Assembly (NCBI RefSeq): GCF_004010195.1
Contig: NC_057718.1
Span: 83,823,209 to 83,843,208, forward strand
Length of the DNA stretch: 20,000 nt
Direction of reading: 5' to 3'
DNA from: Chiloscyllium plagiosum
Lineage: Eukaryota
Shown: in pieces, positions 1 to 20,000 of the stretch
Numbering within the stretch: position 1 is the first letter of the stretch
Layout: every line of letters begins with the position of its first letter
Translations under genes and position numbers: made by a program
Notes under the pieces: model-generated
Seen by the model: only the letters and a program-made list of their open reading frames with translations
Told to the model about the DNA's origin: nothing
The model's database searches: none

Positions 1-265
1 ATGTTTGAGCAGTGTCCAAGGTTAGCTCATCCTGATTTCCTGCATCCGTTGCTACCGATATGGTCTCCTCTACATTGGAGAGACCAAGCGCAGACTCTGG
101 AACCAATTCAGGGAACACTTACAGTCCATATGCTGTAAATCAACCCCACCTTCCAGTTATCATCCATTTCAACTCTGGCAATGACATGTCTATCCTGGGT
201 TGCCTCCACTATCAATACAAGGCAACTTGTAAACTGGAGAACGAACACCTCATCTTCGGTCTCAG
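1..265 (+). mobile_element. Penelope-like element, decayed GIY-YIG endonuclease C-terminal fragment
   Basis: Frameshifted translation gives CYRYGLLYIGETKRRL...FREHL and HLPVIIHFNS...MSILGCLH...KLENEHLIFGL, colinear with the GIY-YIG ORF at 14606-15364. Confidence 0.85.
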
Positions 266-279
266 ATGGCCTCATCCAA

Positions 280-1030
280 AAATTCATCAGGGCCTCATCC
301 AGCAGATTGTTGAGGCATCTAAGGAAGAAGCTGTGAGCTCTCGGGCCAACCTGGAGGGGAATGGAGGGAGAGGGGTATTGGATCTCCATGGTGAATAGGG
401 GGAGGGAACTGGAAATTATCAATAGGATGGAGGACACAGGAATCATGGATGTAGGTGGGCCGGGTCTGGACAAGTGGAGAGGAGTCATGTTGGGAGGGAA
501 TGAGCTCAGTGGGGCTGGAAGATGCTGATATGATGGGTCTATTGAGACAGTCTGATTTATGAATTTTGGAAAAGAGGTAGAAACAGGCTGTCTAGGGTGT
601 TGGGAGACGACTGGATTGGAGGTGGAGGTATTTCTGGAAGTACTGCGGTCGATGACTATCCTGGCAACAGGAGCTTGATGTTCACATCTGGGATCATGGT
701 CCAGGTGGCAATGGAAAGAAGTGTCTGAAAATTGGTGATGAGTCTTTGAAAGGGACTGATCACTGCGCCTGACTACAGTAACACTACATTTGTCAGCCAG
801 CTTGAAAACAAAGTTAGGGTTGGACCTATGTCAGTGAAGTACAGCTATTTCAGAAGCGGCCAGGTGAGTATCGGAGAGAGGGGCAAAGAAGTTTGAGATG
901 GCTGATGTCATGTCAGCAGTTTTCAATGAAGAGATTGAGGGCAGGCTACAGGCCAGATGGAGAGGTCCAAGTGGAGGGTGAACCATGAATGTGGGTGAAG
1001 GGATCAGTGGAACGTGGAGAATTTTTTCTC
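280..1030 (-). mobile_element. Penelope-like element, decayed N-terminal RT fragment, inverted relative to flanking pieces
   Basis: Minus-strand translation contains SPSTWTSPSGL*PALNLFIENC*HDISHL and RSNPNFVFKLADKCSVTVV, resembling the PLE N-terminal region with the IKPADKGG motif; many stops and frameshifts. Confidence 0.75.
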
Positions 1031-1034
1031 GACC

Positions 1035-1218
1035 AATACCCTACACCCACCATCACTATTCCTGCCAACTAGAGCACAAATGTTGTACCTCCACACTTCA
1101 GTTCTGAAGAAGTCATTTAAATGTTAGCTTGCTATCTCTCCATGATGCTGCCTGACCCTTTGTGATCTCCAGCATTTGTTTTCAGAACAGATTCCAGTGT
1201 CTTCAGTAATTTGTTCCT
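1035..1218 (+). mobile_element. Decayed Penelope pLTR with hammerhead remnant
   Basis: CTGAAGA at 1104-1110, then GATGCTGCCTGACC...CTCCAGCATTT...GATTCCAG...GTAATTTG, colinear with the pLTR at 14349-14484; stem II and GAAAC are eroded. Confidence 0.7.
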
Positions 1219-1226
1219 ATCACTTA

Positions 1227-1428: not shown

Positions 1429-2178
1429 CTGAATTAGATGTTTCGTGTTCACTGCTAATGTGTCAATAATATTTTGCATAAATATAAAAGGTACCAGTTT
1501 TCTCCAAAGGAAAAATACCTCAAATTAAGCAACAACAGAGCATTGGCATTCAGCATTTTTTTTTCTCCTGTAGCCTGTGAAGAAGAAAGCACTAAATGAC
1601 TGGGTTTGGTGAAGCTAACAATTAATGGTACCATTTAGTTGTATTCCAGATTTTGAGTACTAGCCTTTTTATGAATGATGAATTATAAGTTCATCTGCAC
1701 AATTATTAAACAAGATGGCGGGCAGGTTGTTGGAGGGAATCCTGAGGGACAAGATTCACATGTATTTGGAAAGGCAAGGACTGATTACGGATGGTCAGCA
1801 TGGCTTCGCATGTGGGAAATCATGTCTCATAAACTTGATTGAGTTTTCTGAAGAGGTAACGAAGAGGATTGATGAGGGCAGAGCGGTGGACGTGATCTAA
1901 TGGACTTCAGTAAGGCATTTGACAAGGTTCCTCATGGTAGACTGGTTATCAAGGTTAGATCTCATGGAATACAGGGAAAACTAGCTATTTGGATACAGAA
2001 CTGTCTCAAAGGTAGAAGACAGAGGGTGGTGGTGGAGGGTGCTTTTCAGATTGGAGGCCTGTGACCAGTTGTGATGGATCCACTGCTTTTTGTCATTTAT
2101 GTAAATGATTTGGATGTGAACATAGGAAATATAGTTAGTAAGTTTGTCGATGACACCAAAAATTGGAGGTGTAATCGA

Positions 2179-2395
2179 CCAGAGAAAGTGAGGGCTGCAG
2201 ATGCTGGAGATCAGAGCTGAAAATGTGTTGCTGGAAAAGCGCAGCAGGTCAGGCAGCATCCAAGGAACAGGAGAATCGACGTTTCGGGCATAAGCCCGAA
2301 GAAGCCTGAAGAAGGGCTTATGCCCGAAACGTCGATTCTCCTGTTCCTTGGATGCTGCCTGACCTGCTGCGCTTTTCCAACAACACATTTTCAGC
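2179..2395. mobile_element. ORF-less fold-back Penelope pLTR insertion with 12-bp TSD
   Basis: AGGTGTAATCGA at 2167-2178 and 2396-2407; inverted arms 2216-2297 and 2314-2395 (82 bp, 1 mismatch), 16-nt loop, 37-nt unpaired tail 2179-2215. Confidence 0.9.
2300..2339 (+). ncRNA. Minimal hammerhead ribozyme motif (PLE type)
   Basis: CTGAAGA 2306-2312, A, stem II GGGC-TTAT-GCCC 2314-2325, GAAAC 2326-2330, GTC 2331-2333; helix I is imperfect (AGAAGC / GATTCT). Activity not shown. Confidence 0.7.
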
Positions 2396-2461
2396 AGGTG
2401 TAATCGAGAGCCAAGAATGTTATCTCTGATCAAGATCCCGTTGTAATCGATGGGTGAATGG

Positions 2462-2988
2462 TTCTGGATTAGTGGTGCTAGAAGAGCACAGCAGTTCAGG
2501 AAGCATCCAAGGAGCTTCAAAATCGACGTTTCGGGCAAAAGCCCTTCAGGAATAAAGGCAGTGAGCCTGAAGCGTGGAGAGATAAGCTAGAGGAGGGTGG
2601 GGTTGGGGAGAAACTAGCATAGAGTACAGTGGGTGAGTGGGGGAGGGGATGAAGGTGATAGGTCAGGTCAGGGAGGAGAGGGTGGAGTGGATAGGTGGAA
2701 AATAGTCTCCTTTTCCACCTATCCACTCCACCCTCTCCTCCCTGACCTATCACCTTCATCCCCTCCCCCACTCACCCATTGGACTCTATGCTACTTTCTT
2801 CCCACCCCCACCCTCCTCTAGTTTATCTCTCCACGCTTCAGGCTCACTGCCTTTATTCCTGATGAAGGGCTTTTGCCCGAAACGTCGATTTCGAAGCTCC
2901 TTGGATGCTGCCTGAACTGCTGTGCTCTTCCAGCACCACTAATCCAGAATCTGGTTTCCAGCATCTACAGTCATTGTTTTTACCTCAA
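2462..2988. mobile_element. ORF-less fold-back Penelope pLTR insertion with 10-bp TSD
   Basis: GGGTGAATGG at 2452-2461 and 2989-2998; inverted arms about 2462-2702 and 2711-2949, 8-nt loop, 39-nt unpaired tail 2950-2988. Confidence 0.9.
2855..2890 (+). ncRNA. Minimal hammerhead ribozyme motif (PLE type)
   Basis: CTGATGA 2859-2865, A, GGGC-TTTT-GCCC 2867-2878, GAAAC 2879-2883, GTC 2884-2886; stem III is reduced to the palindrome ACGT. Confidence 0.75.
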
Positions 2989-3646
2989 GGGTGAATGGGC
3001 TGAGGCATGGTAGATGGAGTTTAATTTAGATTAATGCGAGGTGCTGCATTTTGGAATAACAAATCAGAGCAGGACTTAATGGTAAGGTCCAATGGAGTAT
3101 TGCTGAACAAAGAGACCTTGGAGTGCAGGTTCATATTTCCTTGAAAGTGGAGTCGCAGGTAGATCGGATAGTAAAAAAGGCATTTGGTATGCTTTCCTTT
3201 ATTGATCAGCGCGTTGAATACAGGAGTTGGGAGCTGTACAGGACATTGGTTTGGTCACCTTTGGAATATTGCGTGCAATTCTGGTTTCCTCCCTATTTGA
3301 AAAGATGTTGTGATACTTAAAAGGGTTCTGTAAAGATTTAGAATATGGCCAGGGTTGGAGGTTTTGAGTTATAGGGAGGGGCTGAGTAGGTTGGGGGTGT
3401 TTTCCTCGGAGTGGAGGCTGAAGGGTGACCTTAAAGAGGTTTACAAAATTTATGAGGGGCATGGATAGAATAAATAGACAAAGACTTTTCCCTGGGATCT
3501 GGGAGTCCAGAACTAGAGGGCGTAGGTTTAAGGTGAGACAGGAAAGATATAAAAAGGACCTAAAGGGTGACTTTTTCACACTGTGGGTGGTGCATGAATG
3601 GAATGAGCTGCCAGAGGATGTCGTGGAGGCTGGTACACTTACAACA

Positions 3647-3964
3647 CGGCACGGTGGCTCAGTAGTTCACACTGCTGCCTCACAGCACCAGGGTCCCGGG
3701 TTCAATTCCAGCATCGGGCGACTGTCTGTGTGGAGTTTGCACATTTTCTCCGTGTCTGTGTGGGTTTCCTCTGGGTGCTCTGGTTTCCTCCCTCAGTCCA
3801 AAGATGTGCAGATCAGGTGAATTGGCCATTCTAAATTGCCTGTAAAATTATGTGCATTAGTTAGAGGAATAGGTCTGGGTGGGTTACTCTTCAGAGGGTT
3901 AGTGTGGACTGGCTGGGGCGAAGGGTCTGTTTCCATACTGTAGGGAACCTAATCTCATCTAATC
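3647..3964 (+). mobile_element. tRNA-derived V-SINE (HE1-like) with 7-bp TSD
   Basis: A box TGGCTCAGTAG 3655-3665, B box GGTTCAATTCC 3699-3709, V-domain-like TGTGTGGAGTTTGCAC...GGTTTCCTCC...CAGTCCAAAGATGTGC, CR1-like tail GAAGGGTCTGTTTCCATACTGTA; TSD TACAACA at 3640-3646 and 3965-3971. Confidence 0.9.
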
Positions 3965-4659
3965 TACAACATTTAAAAGGCATCTGGATGGGTATATGAA
4001 CAGGAAGTGTTTCGAGGGAGATGGGCCAAATGTTTGCAAGTGGGACTATATTAGGTTTGGGTATTGGTCGGCATGGATGAGTTGGACTGAAGGGTCTGTT
4101 TTCATGCTGTACGTCTCTATGACTCTTAGAACTTTAATTAATCTAGTGGGTACACTAACTGTCATTTCGGTGCCATTAATGCTGAGCAATATACCAATAC
4201 GTGCAAAGCTGTTCAGGTGAATTAACTCTTAAAAGGTGGGAAAATTGTTGCTCCTGTGATGTACCTTGGAAAATGTTAAGGAAATAATTCTTTTTTAAGT
4301 CAAAAACAATCACATAACACTGAGGTATCGTTCAACAAGTTTATTAAAACCTCATCTAAAAAAGAAAAACTCATGCTCCTGAAAATATTCCATTATGTCA
4401 GTAACACAACAAGAAAAGACAACTTCCATTTTGTCATGATCTAGACTTGCAGAACGAAAACAGCGAGTTCCTTCATGCAATGATAAAATTAATCATTGCT
4501 GTTCCTCAATTCACTGGAGGTCCAGTTTCAAATTTTACCTGTAGTTTACAAACTGATGCCACTTATGTTTAAATGGCTTTTGGGGTTAAGCATTCAGTCA
4601 GGACATACTGACAAGGCTTGTATTCTCTCAAATGTAAATTATTAAGAAGAGATCCAAGT

Positions 4660-7379: not shown

Positions 7380-8187
7380 TCAATTGCAATTTATAAGTTT
7401 GCCGATGACACCACCACAGTCGGTCGAATCTCAGATGGCGACGAAACAGACTACAGATGGGAGGTGGAAGACCTGAAAAAAATGATGCAGTGAGAACAAC
7501 CTAGCGCTCAATGTCGGCAAAACCAAGGAACTCATTATTGACTTTTGGCAGGACATCACTCATGCTCTCTACACATTTAACCGCACAGAGGTGGAACGAG
7601 TGGAGATTGTCAAGCTCCTGGGAGTGGTCATCAACAACAAGCTTTCTTGGACTCCTCATGTGGATGCAGTGGTTAGAAAGGCCCAACAATGTCGCTTCTC
7701 CTCAGGCAGCTGAGAAAGTTTGGCATGATAGTGAATACCCTAGGCACCTTTTTATAGGTGTGTCATCGAGAGCATTCTGTCTGGATATATCACTACCTGA
7801 TATGGTAACTATCATTCAAGATCTGAGACTGTTACAGAGAGTGGTGAACTCGACCTGGACAATCACCAAGGCCAACCTCCAGTCTATAGAATCCATCTAC
7901 CAGGCCCGCTGTCGAGGAAAGGCTGCCAGCATTCTCAAAGATCCATCTCACCCTGGCAATGTTTTTCTACAGCCTCTACCATCAGGGATAAGGTACAGAA
8001 GCCTGAACACCAGCACCAACCGATTTTGCAATGGTTTCTACCCTATGTTGTTAGAATACTGAATGGACTCTCAAACTCTTAATATTTGCCTGGACCTGTT
8101 TTTGTTTTTGCCACTGTTTACCTATTATTTACTTAATTATGTGATCTGCCTGTATTGCCTGCAAGACAAAGCTTTTCACTGTGCCTC
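7380..8187 (+). mobile_element. Rex1/Babar-type LINE, 5'-truncated RT plus 3' end
   Basis: IYKFADDTTTVGRISDGDETDYRWEVE, NNLALNVGKTKELIIDF, LQRVVNS, KAASILKDPSHPGNVFLQPLPSGIRYRSLNTSTNRF; 3' UTR AAGCTTTTCACTGTGCCTC. Confidence 0.85.
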
Positions 8188-10617: not shown

Positions 10618-10693
10618 CACCACCAATTTTTCAAGGGTAACTAGGACAGGCAATAAATGCTACACCCACATATCACAAATGAATAAAACAAAA
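10618..10693 (+). mobile_element. 3' tail of the same ZfL3-like LINE family, opposite orientation
   Basis: CACCACC...TCAAGGGTAACTAGGACAGGCAATAAATGCT...CCCACAT...AATGAATAAAA. Confidence 0.7.
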
Positions 10694-10924
10694 GTTCCAT
10701 GGAACAAAGGGACCTTGGGCATTATTGTCCATAGATCTCAAGGCAGAAGGCCACATCAATAGGTTAGTGAAAAAGATAAATTGGGCACTTACCTTTATCA
10801 ACTGAGGCACAGATTACAAACGCAGGGAAGTCATGATGGAGTTGTATCAAAGTTTAGATCACAGCTAGAGTACAGTGTGCGGTTCTGGTTGCCATATTAC
10901 AGGTAGGATGTAATCGCACTAGAG

Positions 10925-13149: not shown

Positions 13150-14165
13150 CATTTTTATTTGGTCATAGGATGTGTGAAGGCCAGTACAAAACCAGCATTT
13201 AATCCCTTTCCAAAGGATGTCGTGGGTTACAGAGGGACATGGATAAGCTGCAGAGCTGAGCTGAGAGGTGACAAATGGAGATTAATGTGGAAGCGTGTGA
13301 GGTGATTCACTTTGGAAGGCCGAACAGGAATACAGAGTACTGGGCTAATGGTCTGATTCTTGGTTGTGTGGATGAGCAGAAAGATATCTGTGTCCATGTA
13401 CGTAAATCCCTGAAAATTGCCACCCAGGTTGAGAAGGTTGTTAAGAAGGCATGGGCGTTGTTAGCTTTTACTTGTAGAGGGATTGACTTTCAGAGCCACG
13501 AGGTCATTCTGCAGCTGTACAAAACTCTGGTGCGACCGCACTTGGAGTATTGCATACAATTCTGGACACTGTGTTATAGAAAGGATGTGGAAGGTTCGAA
13601 AAGGGTGCAGTGGAGATTTACCAGGATGTTATGGAGGGCAGCTCTTATGAGGAAAGACTGAGGGATTTAAGGCTGTTTTTGTTAGAGAGAAGGTTGAGGG
13701 GTGACTTAATTGAGACATGTACAATAATCAGAGGGTTGGATATGGTGTACAGCGAGAGCCTTTTTCCTCGAATGGTGATGGCTAGCGCAAGGGGACAAAG
13801 CTTTAAATTGAGGGATGATAGATATAGGACAAATGTCAGAGGTAGGTTCTTTATTCAGAGTATTAAGGGTGTGGAACGGCCTGCCTGCAAGAGGAGTAGA
13901 CTCTCCAACTTTAAGGGCATTTAAATGGTCATTGGATAAACATAGGATGAAAATGGAATAGGCTTCAGATTGGTTTCACAGGTCGACGCAACATCGAGGG
14001 TCCAAGGGCCTGTACTGCACGGTAATGTTCTATGTTCTATCCCTAACTATCCATGACAAGCCATCTTCTACTCCTCCTGAGAAGCTGGTACATTCAGAGT
14101 ATTCAGAGTGGGGAGTTGCAGGATATCCAGTTGCAGTAACAAATGGTGATATTGTTCCAAGTGAG
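13150..14165 (-). mobile_element. Old ZfL3-like LINE 3' end, split by the CR1 at 13215-14040
   Basis: TTTTATTTGGTCATAGGATGTG...CCAGCATTTAATCCC to the left and CCCTAACT...GGGAGTTGCAGGAT...TTCCAAGT to the right match the reverse complement of the tail at 10618-10693 and its upstream UTR. Confidence 0.55.
13215..14040 (+). mobile_element. 5'-truncated CR1 LINE
   Basis: CEVIHFGR, LQLYKTLVRPHLEYCIQFW, YEERLRDLRLFLLERRLRGDLIE; ends in (TGTTCTA)2. Confidence 0.92.
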
Positions 14166-14346: not shown

Positions 14347-15380
14347 GGATAAAAGCAAATTACTGCGAATACTGGAATCTGAAACCAAAAGAGAAAATGC
14401 TGGAAAATCTCAGCAGGTCTGGCAGCATCTGTAAGGAGAGAAAAGAGCTGACGTTTCAAGTCAAACTGACCCTTTGTCAAAGCTAAAAAAAGGGAGAAAT
14501 AGAGAGGTATTTATACTAGGCTGAGAGAAGGTGAGTCATGGCTCCAGAAGTAAAGGTAGCAATAAAGAGGTGATAATGACAGTGCATAGAGAGATTATGG
14601 GGGGATTAGGAGCTATGAATGACCAAGGCTGAAGCCAGTGCTATGTGACAAAATATGTGGGGCTGTAACATGCCTAGTCTGAAGATGAGATGCTGTTCTT
14701 CCAGTTTGCGTTGAGCTTCACTGGAACATTGCAGCAGGCCAAGGACAGACATGTGGGCATGGGAGCAGGATTGTGTGTTGAAGTGGCAAGCCACAGGAAG
14801 GTCTGGGACCTGATTGCATACAGACCAAAGGTGCTCAGCAAAGCGATCACCCAGTCGGCATTTTGTTTCTCTGATATAGAGGAGACCACATCGGGAGCAG
14901 CGAATGCAATAGACCAAATTGAAAGAGGTACAAGTGAAACGCTGCTTAATCTGAAATGAGTGTTTGGGGCCTTGGATGGTGAGCGTGGAAGAGGTAAAGG
15001 GGCAGATGTTACACCTGCGATTGCATGGGAAAGTGCCGTGTGTGTTGGGAGAGTTGTTAGGTGTGATGGAGGAGTGGACGAGGTTGTCCCGGAGGGAATG
15101 ATCTCTGCGGAGTGCAGGCAGGGGGAGGGAAGGGAAGATGTGTTTCGTGGTGGCATCGTGTTGGAATTGGCGAAACTGGCGGAGGATTATTCTTTGCATG
15201 TGAAGGTTGGTGGGGTGAAAGGTGAGAACAAGAGGGACCCTATCCTTATTCTGGGAGGGGAGGGAGGGGGTGAGGGTCGTGGCGAGGGAGATGGACCGCA
15301 CGCTGTTGAGAGCCTTGTCAACAACTGAAGGTGGGAAGCCACGGTTGGAGAAGAAGGAGCACATATTAAGAGCACCACTT
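14347..15380 (-). mobile_element. 5'-truncated Penelope-like element: RT thumb, linker, GIY-YIG endonuclease and 3' pLTR
   Basis: Open frame 14606-15364: FSNRGFP, RVPLVLTFHP, PCNRRCNIC, FTCTSFNLVYCIRCSRCGLLYIRETKCRLGDRFAEH, VACHFN, RKLEEQHLIFRLGMLQP; pLTR at about 14349-14600. Confidence 0.92.
14446..14484 (-). ncRNA. Variant or degenerate hammerhead-like motif in pLTR
   Basis: Minus strand AGCT-TTGACAA-AGGGTCA-GTT-TGACTT-GAAAC-GTC-AGCT: helices I and II are intact, but the core is UUGACAA instead of CUGANGA. Confidence 0.5.
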
Positions 15381-18309: not shown

Positions 18310-18424
18310 TATTTTTTTAAAAAGCAAATGTTATTCAGCAGTCCATTCTCAACAGCAATTCTCAGTTCCAAACCCAGTGAGAAAAATAAAAGAAAAAATG
18401 TGAAGATATCAACAATAGCTAATG

Positions 18425-18755
18425 GAAAAGTCGAAAGAAGGGATCGATGAGGCCAATGCTGTTGATATTGTGTACATGGATTTCCAAAGGCATTTATTAC
18501 AGTGCCACCTCAAAAGACTTGTGAGCAAAGTCACAGGTCTGGAAGTAAAAGAGTCAGAGCAACATGGATATTAAATTGTCTCCTGTCACTCAGAGAGGTG
18601 GTCAATGGATGTTTTGAGCTGGAAGAAAAGTTTGTTTTGAGAATTCTCGAGTGATTGCTGTTGACACTCTTGCCCTTCCCATTATAGATTGATGACCAAG
18701 ACCTTGAAGGACATGGCATGATTTCAAAATTGGCACATGGTATCACGAACTGCGG
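18425..18755 (+). mobile_element. Old CR1 RT internal fragment
   Basis: IDEANAVDIVYMDFQRAF; a decayed ISKFADD motif (ISKLAHG). Confidence 0.75.
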
Positions 18756-19874: not shown

Positions 19875-20000
19875 TGGATCAGTGGTGCTGGAAGAGCACA
19901 GCAATTCAGGCAGCATCCGAAGACAGGCAAAATCGACGTTTCGGGCAAAAGCCCTTCATCAGGAATAAAGGCAGAGAGCCTGAAGCGTGGAGAGATAAGC
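19875..20000 (-). mobile_element. Penelope pLTR (same subfamily as 2462-2988) with intact hammerhead core, running off the window
   Basis: Near-identical to 2465-2587; minus-strand CTGATGA-A-GGGC-TTTT-GCCC-GAAAC-GTC at 19962-19935. Confidence 0.88.

What the first reader, a model, noticed from the sequence alone, without database searches (positions are those of the whole stretch)
2167..2998. Two ORF-less, fold-back, hammerhead-bearing mini-retroelements with exact TSDs
Seen: each insert is only a pLTR and its inverted copy (82-bp and ~240-bp arms), has no ORF, is flanked by a perfect TSD (12 and 10 bp), and has one intact hammerhead core. Known: Penelope-like elements carry minimal hammerheads in their pLTRs and can insert with an inverted 5' pLTR. 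Inference: these are either extreme truncation products of Penelope integration or a non-autonomous, ribozyme-processed hairpin retroelement (retrozyme-like) mobilised by PLE RT/GIY-YIG, such as the type seen at 14347-15380.
Basis: partly seen in the sequence, partly recalled or inferred. Interest (0 to 1): 0.8.

Follow-up and report, generated by a model that had tools for sequence, protein, structure and literature searches.

The report
Truncated Penelope retroelement hairpin insertions
Two small hairpin-shaped inserts in a shark-like genome are stub ends of very abundant Penelope-type jumping genes, and their fold-back centres are not amplified in the sequencing data, so they are likely one-off products of the known way these elements land rather than a new self-copying RNA element.

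Summary
The anatomy is real: exact 12- and 10-bp duplications, arms of 82 and about 240 bp, one complete hammerhead core sequence each. Each insert also has a 37-39-nt tail outside the hairpin on one side only. Inverted copy plus tail plus duplication is the published insertion pattern of Penelope-like elements.

In contigs of three DNA runs, the loop of insert 2 has summed depth 45, 0 and 11 against 257,000-499,000 on the adjoining arm. Neither insert's junction is among the 27 best-supported joints shown (of 416 rows), while eight head-to-head joints at seven other coordinate pairs are. This evidence is weaker for insert 1.

Retrozyme membership fails: no same-sense tandem ribozymes, minimal cores, helix I of 1-2 contiguous pairs, and the cores are predicted to be buried in the hairpin.

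Likely mechanism: both target ends prime reverse transcription at two start sites one tail-length apart, and the two short cDNAs are joined head to head. Earlier notes of this scan report the same class elsewhere in this genome. Ordinary for the class.

The parts
2167..2178 (.). Insert 1, left copy of 12-bp target-site duplication
   Evidence: exact repeat of 2396-2407
2179..2215 (-). Insert 1, 37-nt one-sided tail (element 3' end)
   Evidence: outside the inverted repeat; the same tail start is the loose-end consensus of 432 RNA reads behind 2395
2216..2297 (-). Insert 1, tail-bearing pLTR arm, 5'-truncated at hammerhead stem II
2298..2304 (.). Insert 1, 7-nt junction filler repeating the head of the other arm
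   Evidence: period-10 duplication at 2292-2314; sequence
2305..2395 (+). Insert 1, tail-less inverted pLTR arm with minimal hammerhead core at 2306-2333
2396..2407 (.). Insert 1, right copy of duplication
2408..2451 (+). Host LINE DNA between the inserts, with a micro-inversion of about 22 bp (2427-2448)
   Evidence: flipping it raises the alignment score to the LINE copy at 13201-13340 from 52 to 73
2452..2461 (.). Insert 2, left copy of 10-bp duplication
   Evidence: exact repeat of 2989-2998
2462..2702 (-). Insert 2, tail-less inverted pLTR arm; 3-nt deletion in the hammerhead core, 5-nt duplication
   Evidence: private changes seen against other copies
2703..2710 (.). Insert 2, 8-nt loop (fold-back junction), not amplified
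   Evidence: depth 45.1, 0, 11.3 in three DNA runs and 0 in RNA reads for bin 2704-2710
2711..2949 (+). Insert 2, tail-bearing pLTR arm with minimal hammerhead core at 2859-2886
2950..2988 (+). Insert 2, 39-nt one-sided tail
   Evidence: outside the inverted repeat; aligns with the tail of insert 1
2989..2998 (.). Insert 2, right copy of duplication
1700..4120 (+). Decayed LINE reverse-transcriptase region that hosts both inserts (limits read by eye; the CR1 label is recalled)
   Evidence: Pfam RVT_1 E 0.00094, below the curated cut-off; tblastn to P0045; removing the inserts in a script gives continuous RT-like peptide
19875..20000 (-). Third copy of the insert-2 family, tail-less inverted arm, cut by the window edge
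   Evidence: 89-92% alike; outer end 3 nt short of the tail boundary
14347..15380 (-). 5'-truncated GIY-YIG Penelope-like element of a related family (Neptune/Nematis-type linker motif), with its own pLTR and tail
   Evidence: 257-aa open stretch, top hits 59-60% identical proteins of rays; CX3CxxC motif before the endonuclease (criterion from PMC8557442)

Best explanation
The two inserts are separate, heavily shortened insertions of two very abundant Penelope-like retrotransposon families, each made of an end repeat, its mirror copy and a one-sided tail between duplicated target bases, and each hairpin was likely built during its own integration rather than copied as a unit. Likely mechanism (inferred, about 60%): the element's GIY-YIG endonuclease makes staggered nicks 10-12 bp apart. 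Each target 3' end primes reverse transcription of the end-repeat RNA at one of two start sites that lie one tail-length apart. Both cDNAs run to about the same point upstream (the front edge of the hammerhead in insert 1, 148 nt upstream of it in insert 2) and are joined head to head with a short filler; gap repair gives the duplication. Shown: anatomy, family abundance, low copy of the insert-2 junction, varied junctions in other copies. Inferred: the enzyme, the double priming, the RNA template and where it begins. The hammerheads are likely passengers and are predicted to be inactive in a hairpin transcript.
For: Published pattern: adjacent inverted pLTR, optional 31-bp tail on one side and 8-10-bp duplications in rotifer PLEs (PMC3846280); inverted 5'-truncated copy and 30-40-bp tail as general features (PMC8557442); paired minimal hammerheads 100-700 bp apart on opposite strands in Schistosoma, with dispersed motifs read as truncated PLEs (PMC4209133). 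In vitro, an anole PLE protein cuts and extends both strands and starts at two RNA sites that delimit the tail (PMC11167929). Here: tail-less arms end at +89 and +90 from the hammerhead start in the two families, and the third copy 3 nt short of that. Loop of insert 2: depth 45.1, 0, 11.3 against 478,878, 256,766, 499,033 on the adjoining arm and 18-122 on the spacer. Eight of 27 shown joint rows are head-to-head joints at seven other coordinate pairs, the deepest 378. In insert 1 each arm holds sequence that the other lacks (tail; 9 nt of hammerhead front), which simple self-copying does not give. Five of nine arm differences in insert 2 are left-arm letters that 94-99% of other copies lack and the right arm lacks too, as expected of mutations after insertion.
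Against: No genome was held, so copies could not be tabulated with flanks. Summed contig depth is not a copy number, by the tool's own note. Only 15 of 111 and 12 of 305 joint rows were shown, and for X1 some joints were not counted. The insert-1 junction is not resolved by depth: its bin also holds 7 family bases, and the RNA-read residual is up to about 34 per base. Perfectly palindromic centres would be poorly seen in de Bruijn contigs (inference). No listed contig spans the stretch, so presence of this exact locus in the runs is not shown. Six of the eight head-to-head joints are symmetric within 4 nt, which self-priming fold-back explains at least as well as double priming. No coding partner was linked to either family.
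Confidence: 0.82

Rival explanations
1. Same origin (one-off Penelope-like insertions), but the mirror arm comes from fold-back self-priming: one truncated cDNA turns back and is copied toward the tail boundary.
For: Near-symmetric centres at varied places: 6 of 8 head-to-head joints within 4 nt, insert 2 at offset 0. Both arms of insert 2 share the same subfamily letters at 2516-2518. Self-priming was proposed for head-to-head PLE structures (PMC3846280).
Against: The tail-less arm of insert 1 has 9 nt that the tail-bearing arm lacks. The fixed outer end at the tail boundary (3 of 3 arms within 3 nt) needs an extra rule, while two RT start sites are shown in vitro (PMC11167929).
Confidence: 0.3
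2. The hairpin is itself a non-autonomous mobile unit (retrozyme-like), cut out by its hammerhead and mobilised in trans.
For: Clean duplications around ORF-less units. Some head-to-head joints recur at about 5-17 spacer-depth equivalents, several near the hammerhead front. pLTRs can mobilise other DNA in trans (PMC3846280).
Against: Insert-2 junction not amplified. One same-sense core per strand, so no unit can be released. Minimal hammerheads showed no cleavage as single motifs (PMC4209133). Cores are predicted paired in the long hairpin on both strands, MFE about -172 and -473 kcal/mol. Helix I is 1-2 contiguous pairs.
Confidence: 0.06
3. Each insert began as a longer element with an inverted end, and the middle was deleted later because long inverted repeats are unstable.
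For: Duplications and outer ends would survive such a deletion; the filler in insert 1 looks like a repair scar.
Against: Two independent deletions would have to be centred to within 0-9 nt, and short symmetric joints are common in other copies.
Confidence: 0.07
4. Assembly or library fold-back artefact.
For: Long palindromes are a known artefact type (general knowledge); no listed contig spans the stretch.
Against: Arms differ by 9 substitutions and 2 indels, tails are one-sided, duplications are exact, and head-to-head joints of these families occur in three independent runs.
Confidence: 0.01

Closest known systems
Insertion units of endonuclease-bearing Penelope-like elements (Pen2a_Av and relatives, PMC3846280; general scheme in PMC8557442)
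   Same: Inverted pLTR next to a direct copy, head to head; 30-40-bp tail on one side; short duplication; 5' truncation.
   Different: Here no ORF is left and only one direct pLTR piece remains; duplications are 10 and 12 bp against 8-10 bp in the passages read; the families are several orders of magnitude more abundant than the rotifer ones.
Minimal hammerheads of metazoan PLEs (Cervera and De la Pena 2014, PMC4209133)
   Same: Core letters, extra base between positions 9 and 10.1, G10.1-C11.1 pair, no loop 3; dispersed single motifs and pairs on opposite strands 100-700 bp apart.
   Different: Helix II is 4 bp and helix I only 1-2 contiguous pairs, shorter than the 7-8 and 4-5 bp given for Schistosoma motifs; one of the two cores in each insert is broken; the parts read do not mention elasmobranchs.
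Poseidon element of Anolis, in vitro mechanism (Frangieh et al. 2024, PMC11167929)
   Same: Two RT start sites that delimit the tail; both target strands cut and extended; hammerhead not needed for insertion.
   Different: Other clade and host; that paper does not demonstrate hairpin products, so the joining step here is my inference.
Non-LTR retrozymes (PMC7229834; bioRxiv 10.64898/2026.07.22.740005)
   Same: ORF-less, type I hammerhead motif, pLTR-related, similar size, duplication longer than 4 bp.
   Different: Retrozymes are head-to-tail repeats with a hammerhead in each unit (canonical type in the cases read) and give circular RNA; these inserts are head-to-head, with a minimal core and one complete core each.

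Membership tests
Penelope-like element insertion (EN+) | End repeat (pLTR) bearing a minimal type I hammerhead core | tested here: met
   cores at 2306-2333 and 2859-2886; fit to features in PMC4209133; alignment to the end repeat of the GIY-YIG fragment at 14347-14520
Penelope-like element insertion (EN+) | Inverted 5'-truncated copy adjacent at the 5' end, head to head | tested here: met
Penelope-like element insertion (EN+) | 30-40-bp tail on one side only | tested here: met
   37 and 39 nt
Penelope-like element insertion (EN+) | Short target-site duplication | tested here: met
   12 and 10 bp, exact; removal restores continuous host sequence
Penelope-like element insertion (EN+) | Same family has full-length copies with an RT plus GIY-YIG ORF | tested here: inconclusive
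   none of 57 proteins hit the inserts; families continue upstream of the laid arms (loose ends) but no link to an ORF was seen; no genome held
Neptune/Nematis clade | CX2-5CxxC motif between RT and endonuclease | tested here: inconclusive
   met by the neighbour at 14609-15379; the inserts have no coding part; no tree was built
Non-LTR retrozyme | Head-to-tail repeats with a complete hammerhead in at least two consecutive units | tested here: not met
   head-to-head, one complete core per insert; no such array by TRF in 2000-3200
Non-LTR retrozyme | Canonical, foldable type I hammerhead | tested here: not met
   no loop 3, helix I 1-2 contiguous pairs, core predicted buried in the hairpin
Non-LTR retrozyme | Unit-length linear and circular RNA | not testable with these tools
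   only a poly(A) single-cell library was laid, about 2% of it
Self-propagating hairpin unit | Same fold-back junction at many loci | tested here: not met
   insert 2: loop depth 0-2 times the spacer
Self-propagating hairpin unit | Same fold-back junction at many loci (insert 1) | tested here: inconclusive
   absent from the 27 shown of 416 joint rows; not resolved by depth
MITE / fold-back DNA transposon (definition recalled) | Inverted repeats at both termini, abutting the duplication | tested here: not met
   a 37-39-nt tail separates one arm from the duplication in both inserts

The most novel reading that the evidence does not exclude
A subset of these hammerhead-centred hairpins, of the insert-1 type with the centre at the ribozyme's front edge, has become a non-autonomous fold-back retroelement: a host transcript through the hairpin still offers the tail as an RT start site and is re-inserted whole by a Neptune-type RT/GIY-YIG, giving small amplified lineages that share one centre. 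Recurrent centres at about 5-17 spacer-depth equivalents, and the poor visibility of perfect palindromes in contigs, leave this open.
Probability: 0.07. Interest if true: 0.6.

Novelty: new member of a known kind. Interest (0 to 1): 0.2.

Why it matters
As single loci these are ordinary. Their value is as data: how Penelope-like elements make inverted ends and tails is still described as unresolved (PMC8557442, PMC3846280), and a genome with a very large number of short copies allows double priming and self-priming to be told apart by comparing arms. If a hairpin lineage did spread as a unit, it would be a fold-back non-autonomous retroelement unlike tandem retrozymes; the evidence here makes that unlikely.

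Tried and rejected
No whole genome was held. The 29-nt and 22-nt hammerhead-region patterns found 0 matches in viral contigs, metagenome contigs and prokaryote genome contigs, so no flanked copies could be fetched. Rfam at E up to 5 gave 70 matches, none reaching its family's gathering score, nearly all microRNA models on the hairpins; no hammerhead family matched, so the hammerhead call rests on motif search and the paper's description. No RNA holder listed in the run search; not used as evidence. Pfam gave no family for the 257-aa endonuclease-side fragment or for 57-320. A shared target motif was considered: the same 9-mer lies beside both insertion sites, but the second copy overlaps the micro-inversion and the inferred nicks are on opposite strands, so no target preference is claimed. 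Closeness of the two inserts: two of five random sites fall within 55 bp in 20 kb with probability 0.055; not treated as a hot spot. The RNA joint 2348/2519 (58 reads) was read as a subfamily mosaic between the two reference arms, not a fold-back (inference from coordinates). Searches for a described shark or hairpin non-autonomous PLE (3 and 6 papers, listings only) showed nothing on point beyond PMC3846280; Repbase, Dfam and most subscription papers were not searchable, so absence from print is not shown. Look-up of earlier findings by sequence returned nothing.

Full report
Observation. Both inserts are in the sequence as described. Insert 1 lies between exact 12-bp repeats (2167-2178, 2396-2407) and insert 2 between exact 10-bp repeats (2452-2461, 2989-2998); chance at given boundaries is about 7e-6 and 1e-4. 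Arms are 82 nt with one mismatch, and 236 aligned nt with 9 substitutions and 2 indels. Each insert also has a tail outside the hairpin on one side: 37 nt at the left of insert 1 and 39 nt at the right of insert 2. The elements therefore face opposite ways. They belong to two families about 81-84% alike in the shared part. Met-started open stretches of 70 and 80 codons exist, but none of the 57 proteins hit the inserts.

Setting. The host DNA is a decayed LINE reverse-transcriptase region (Pfam RVT_1 at E 0.00094, below cut-off; the CR1 label is recalled). Removing both inserts and one copy of each repeat in a script gave continuous RT-like peptide apart from a frameshift, stops and a micro-inversion of about 22 bp between the inserts; flipping that segment raised the score against the window's second LINE copy from 52 to 73. 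So the repeats are duplicated target DNA. The fragment at 14347-15380 encodes a 257-aa stretch whose two best of 57 hits are ray proteins at 59-60% identity, with a CX3CxxC motif before the endonuclease, the Neptune/Nematis mark given in PMC8557442. The host is thus likely an elasmobranch. That element's end repeat is related to the inserts (32-nt matches at 84-91%; gapped alignment) but is a different family and is not shown to be their partner.

Hammerheads. Each insert has one complete core (2306-2333, 2859-2886) of the minimal type: an extra base before stem II and no loop 3, as described in PMC4209133. The mirror arm's core is broken in both: truncated at stem II in insert 1, 3-nt deletion in insert 2. 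Helix I pairs one position (insert 1) or two (insert 2) before a mismatch. Folding either strand of either insert buries stem II and the cleavage site in the long hairpin. A single minimal motif showed no cleavage in vitro and tandem copies only low activity (PMC4209133). Ribozyme release of these units is therefore unlikely; this is prediction, not assay.

The decisive test. With no genome and no hits in three collections, I laid four public runs on 2298-2710, which holds one arm of each family and both junctions, at 80% likeness (4 of 24 runs listed; three are contig sets from organisms A and B, one is raw poly(A) RNA). The DNA runs laid 63,717, 63,253 and 67,651 contigs. Summed depth peaked at 1.7-2.4e7 on the insert-1 arm and was 2.6-5.0e5 on the insert-2 arm next to the loop, against 18-122 on the spacer. 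The loop bin of insert 2 had 45.1, 0 and 11.3, that is 2.1, 0 and 0.1 times the spacer, and 0 among 3,094 RNA reads. The families are hugely abundant but this junction is not.

Joints. The tool showed 15 of 111 joints and 12 of 305 joints with filler. Eight of these 27 rows are head-to-head (antisense piece, then sense piece) at seven coordinate pairs; the deepest is 378. Converted to hammerhead coordinates, six are symmetric within 4 nt and two are offset by 18 and 37 nt. I left out 19 rows: 8 tail-to-tail skips, 6 direct goes-back rows, 3 opposite-strand rows and 2 rows of one internal skip. Neither insert's own junction is shown. Limits: depth is not copy number; X1 did not count all joints; coordinates come from cross-family alignment; the reference ends at the hammerhead front for family 1, which biases where centres can be seen; perfect palindromes are likely under-seen in contigs; the insert-1 filler is not resolved by depth; no listed contig spans the stretch.

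Mechanism. Tail-less arms stop at +89 and +90 from the hammerhead start in the two families, and the third copy at 19875 stops 3 nt short of that. In vitro, a Poseidon protein cuts and extends both target strands and starts reverse transcription at two RNA sites that delimit the tail, without needing hammerhead cleavage (PMC11167929). I infer that both target ends primed synthesis, one at each site, and that the cDNAs were joined head to head. Insert 1 favours this: each arm has sequence the other lacks, and the filler is a 10-nt duplication of one arm's head. Insert 2 is symmetric and fits self-priming (PMC3846280) equally well. I put double priming at about 60% and self-priming at about 30%. 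Earlier scan notes suggest that the template RNA begins just upstream of the hammerhead; my data agree in part: the largest loose-end class is before 2305 (546 RNA reads; 994-1,066 contigs per DNA run) with low agreement of 0.36-0.5, and RNA depth on the insert-2 arm falls from 371 to 90 at 2549/2550. Other subfamily sequences upstream could give the same picture.

Age. Five of the nine arm differences in insert 2, and apparently both indels, are left-arm changes that the right arm and (for the substitutions) 94-99% of laid X1 depth lack. They are best read as mutations after insertion, which also argues against an assembly artefact. Insert 1, with 1 difference in 82, may be younger, but the count is too small to say.

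Comparison with what is known. Inverted pLTR, optional 31-bp tail and 8-10-bp duplications are described in PMC3846280. Inverted 5'-truncated copies and 30-40-bp tails are given as general PLE features in PMC8557442. Pairs of minimal hammerheads 100-700 bp apart on opposite strands are reported in PMC4209133. Retrozymes are defined by head-to-tail units, each with a hammerhead, and circular RNA (PMC7229834; bioRxiv 10.64898/2026.07.22.740005); the first feature is not met and the second could not be tested. The inserts work like ordinary truncated PLE insertions and meet four of five membership features; the link to a coding copy is open.

What I read. PMC11167929 parts 1-2 of 4; PMC4209133 parts 1-2 of 4; the bioRxiv preprint part 1 of 5 plus passages; PMC8557442, PMC3846280 and PMC7229834 passages only; other papers as search listings. 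No supplements were read; those of PMC4209133 and of the preprint (which sampled one chondrichthyan) may already list these families. Earlier notes of this scan report the same class in many windows of this genome; they are unchecked AI notes and are not counted as support.

Verdict. Real, well-formed and ordinary for Penelope-like elements: new members of a known kind, interest 0.2. A self-propagating hairpin lineage of the insert-1 type is not excluded (about 7%).

Noticed in passing
window 2427-2448: A micro-inversion of about 22 bp in the host LINE lies between the two insertion sites, 3 nt from the second duplication; it may be linked to one of the insertion events.
   Followed up: partly
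window 2305-2362 (joints): Direct head-to-tail joints return to the hammerhead front from 2333, 2336 and 2362 at depth 119-286; one leaves exactly at the predicted cleavage position 2333. These may be very short tandem hammerheads, the arrangement in which minimal cores could pair as dimers.
   Followed up: no
window 1-1225: Another Penelope-like remnant: endonuclease end on + (1-about 290), an RT-like piece on the minus strand (about 300-1030, read by eye from six-frame translation), then a decayed end repeat with tail on +.
   Followed up: partly
window 19875-20000: Third copy of the insert-2 family entering as a tail-less inverted arm with an unbroken hammerhead core; the rest lies beyond the window.
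   Followed up: partly
window 3648-3969: A SINE-like insert in the same LINE with a short, partly matching flanking repeat; the tRNA-derived V-SINE/HE1 label is recalled, not tested.
   Followed up: no
window 14668-14676: The Penelope-like element at 14347-15380 appears to have an internal deletion just after the endonuclease end: similarity to its protein hits stops there.
   Followed up: no
window 2369-2396 to 2462-2464 (joints): Eight joint rows show a sense end repeat followed by an antisense one starting at its outer end (tail-to-tail neighbours) elsewhere in these genomes, at depth up to 194.
   Followed up: no
window 7380-8170, 10690-10920, 13213-14040, 18400-18750: Further decayed LINE reverse-transcriptase fragments, read by eye.
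   Followed up: no
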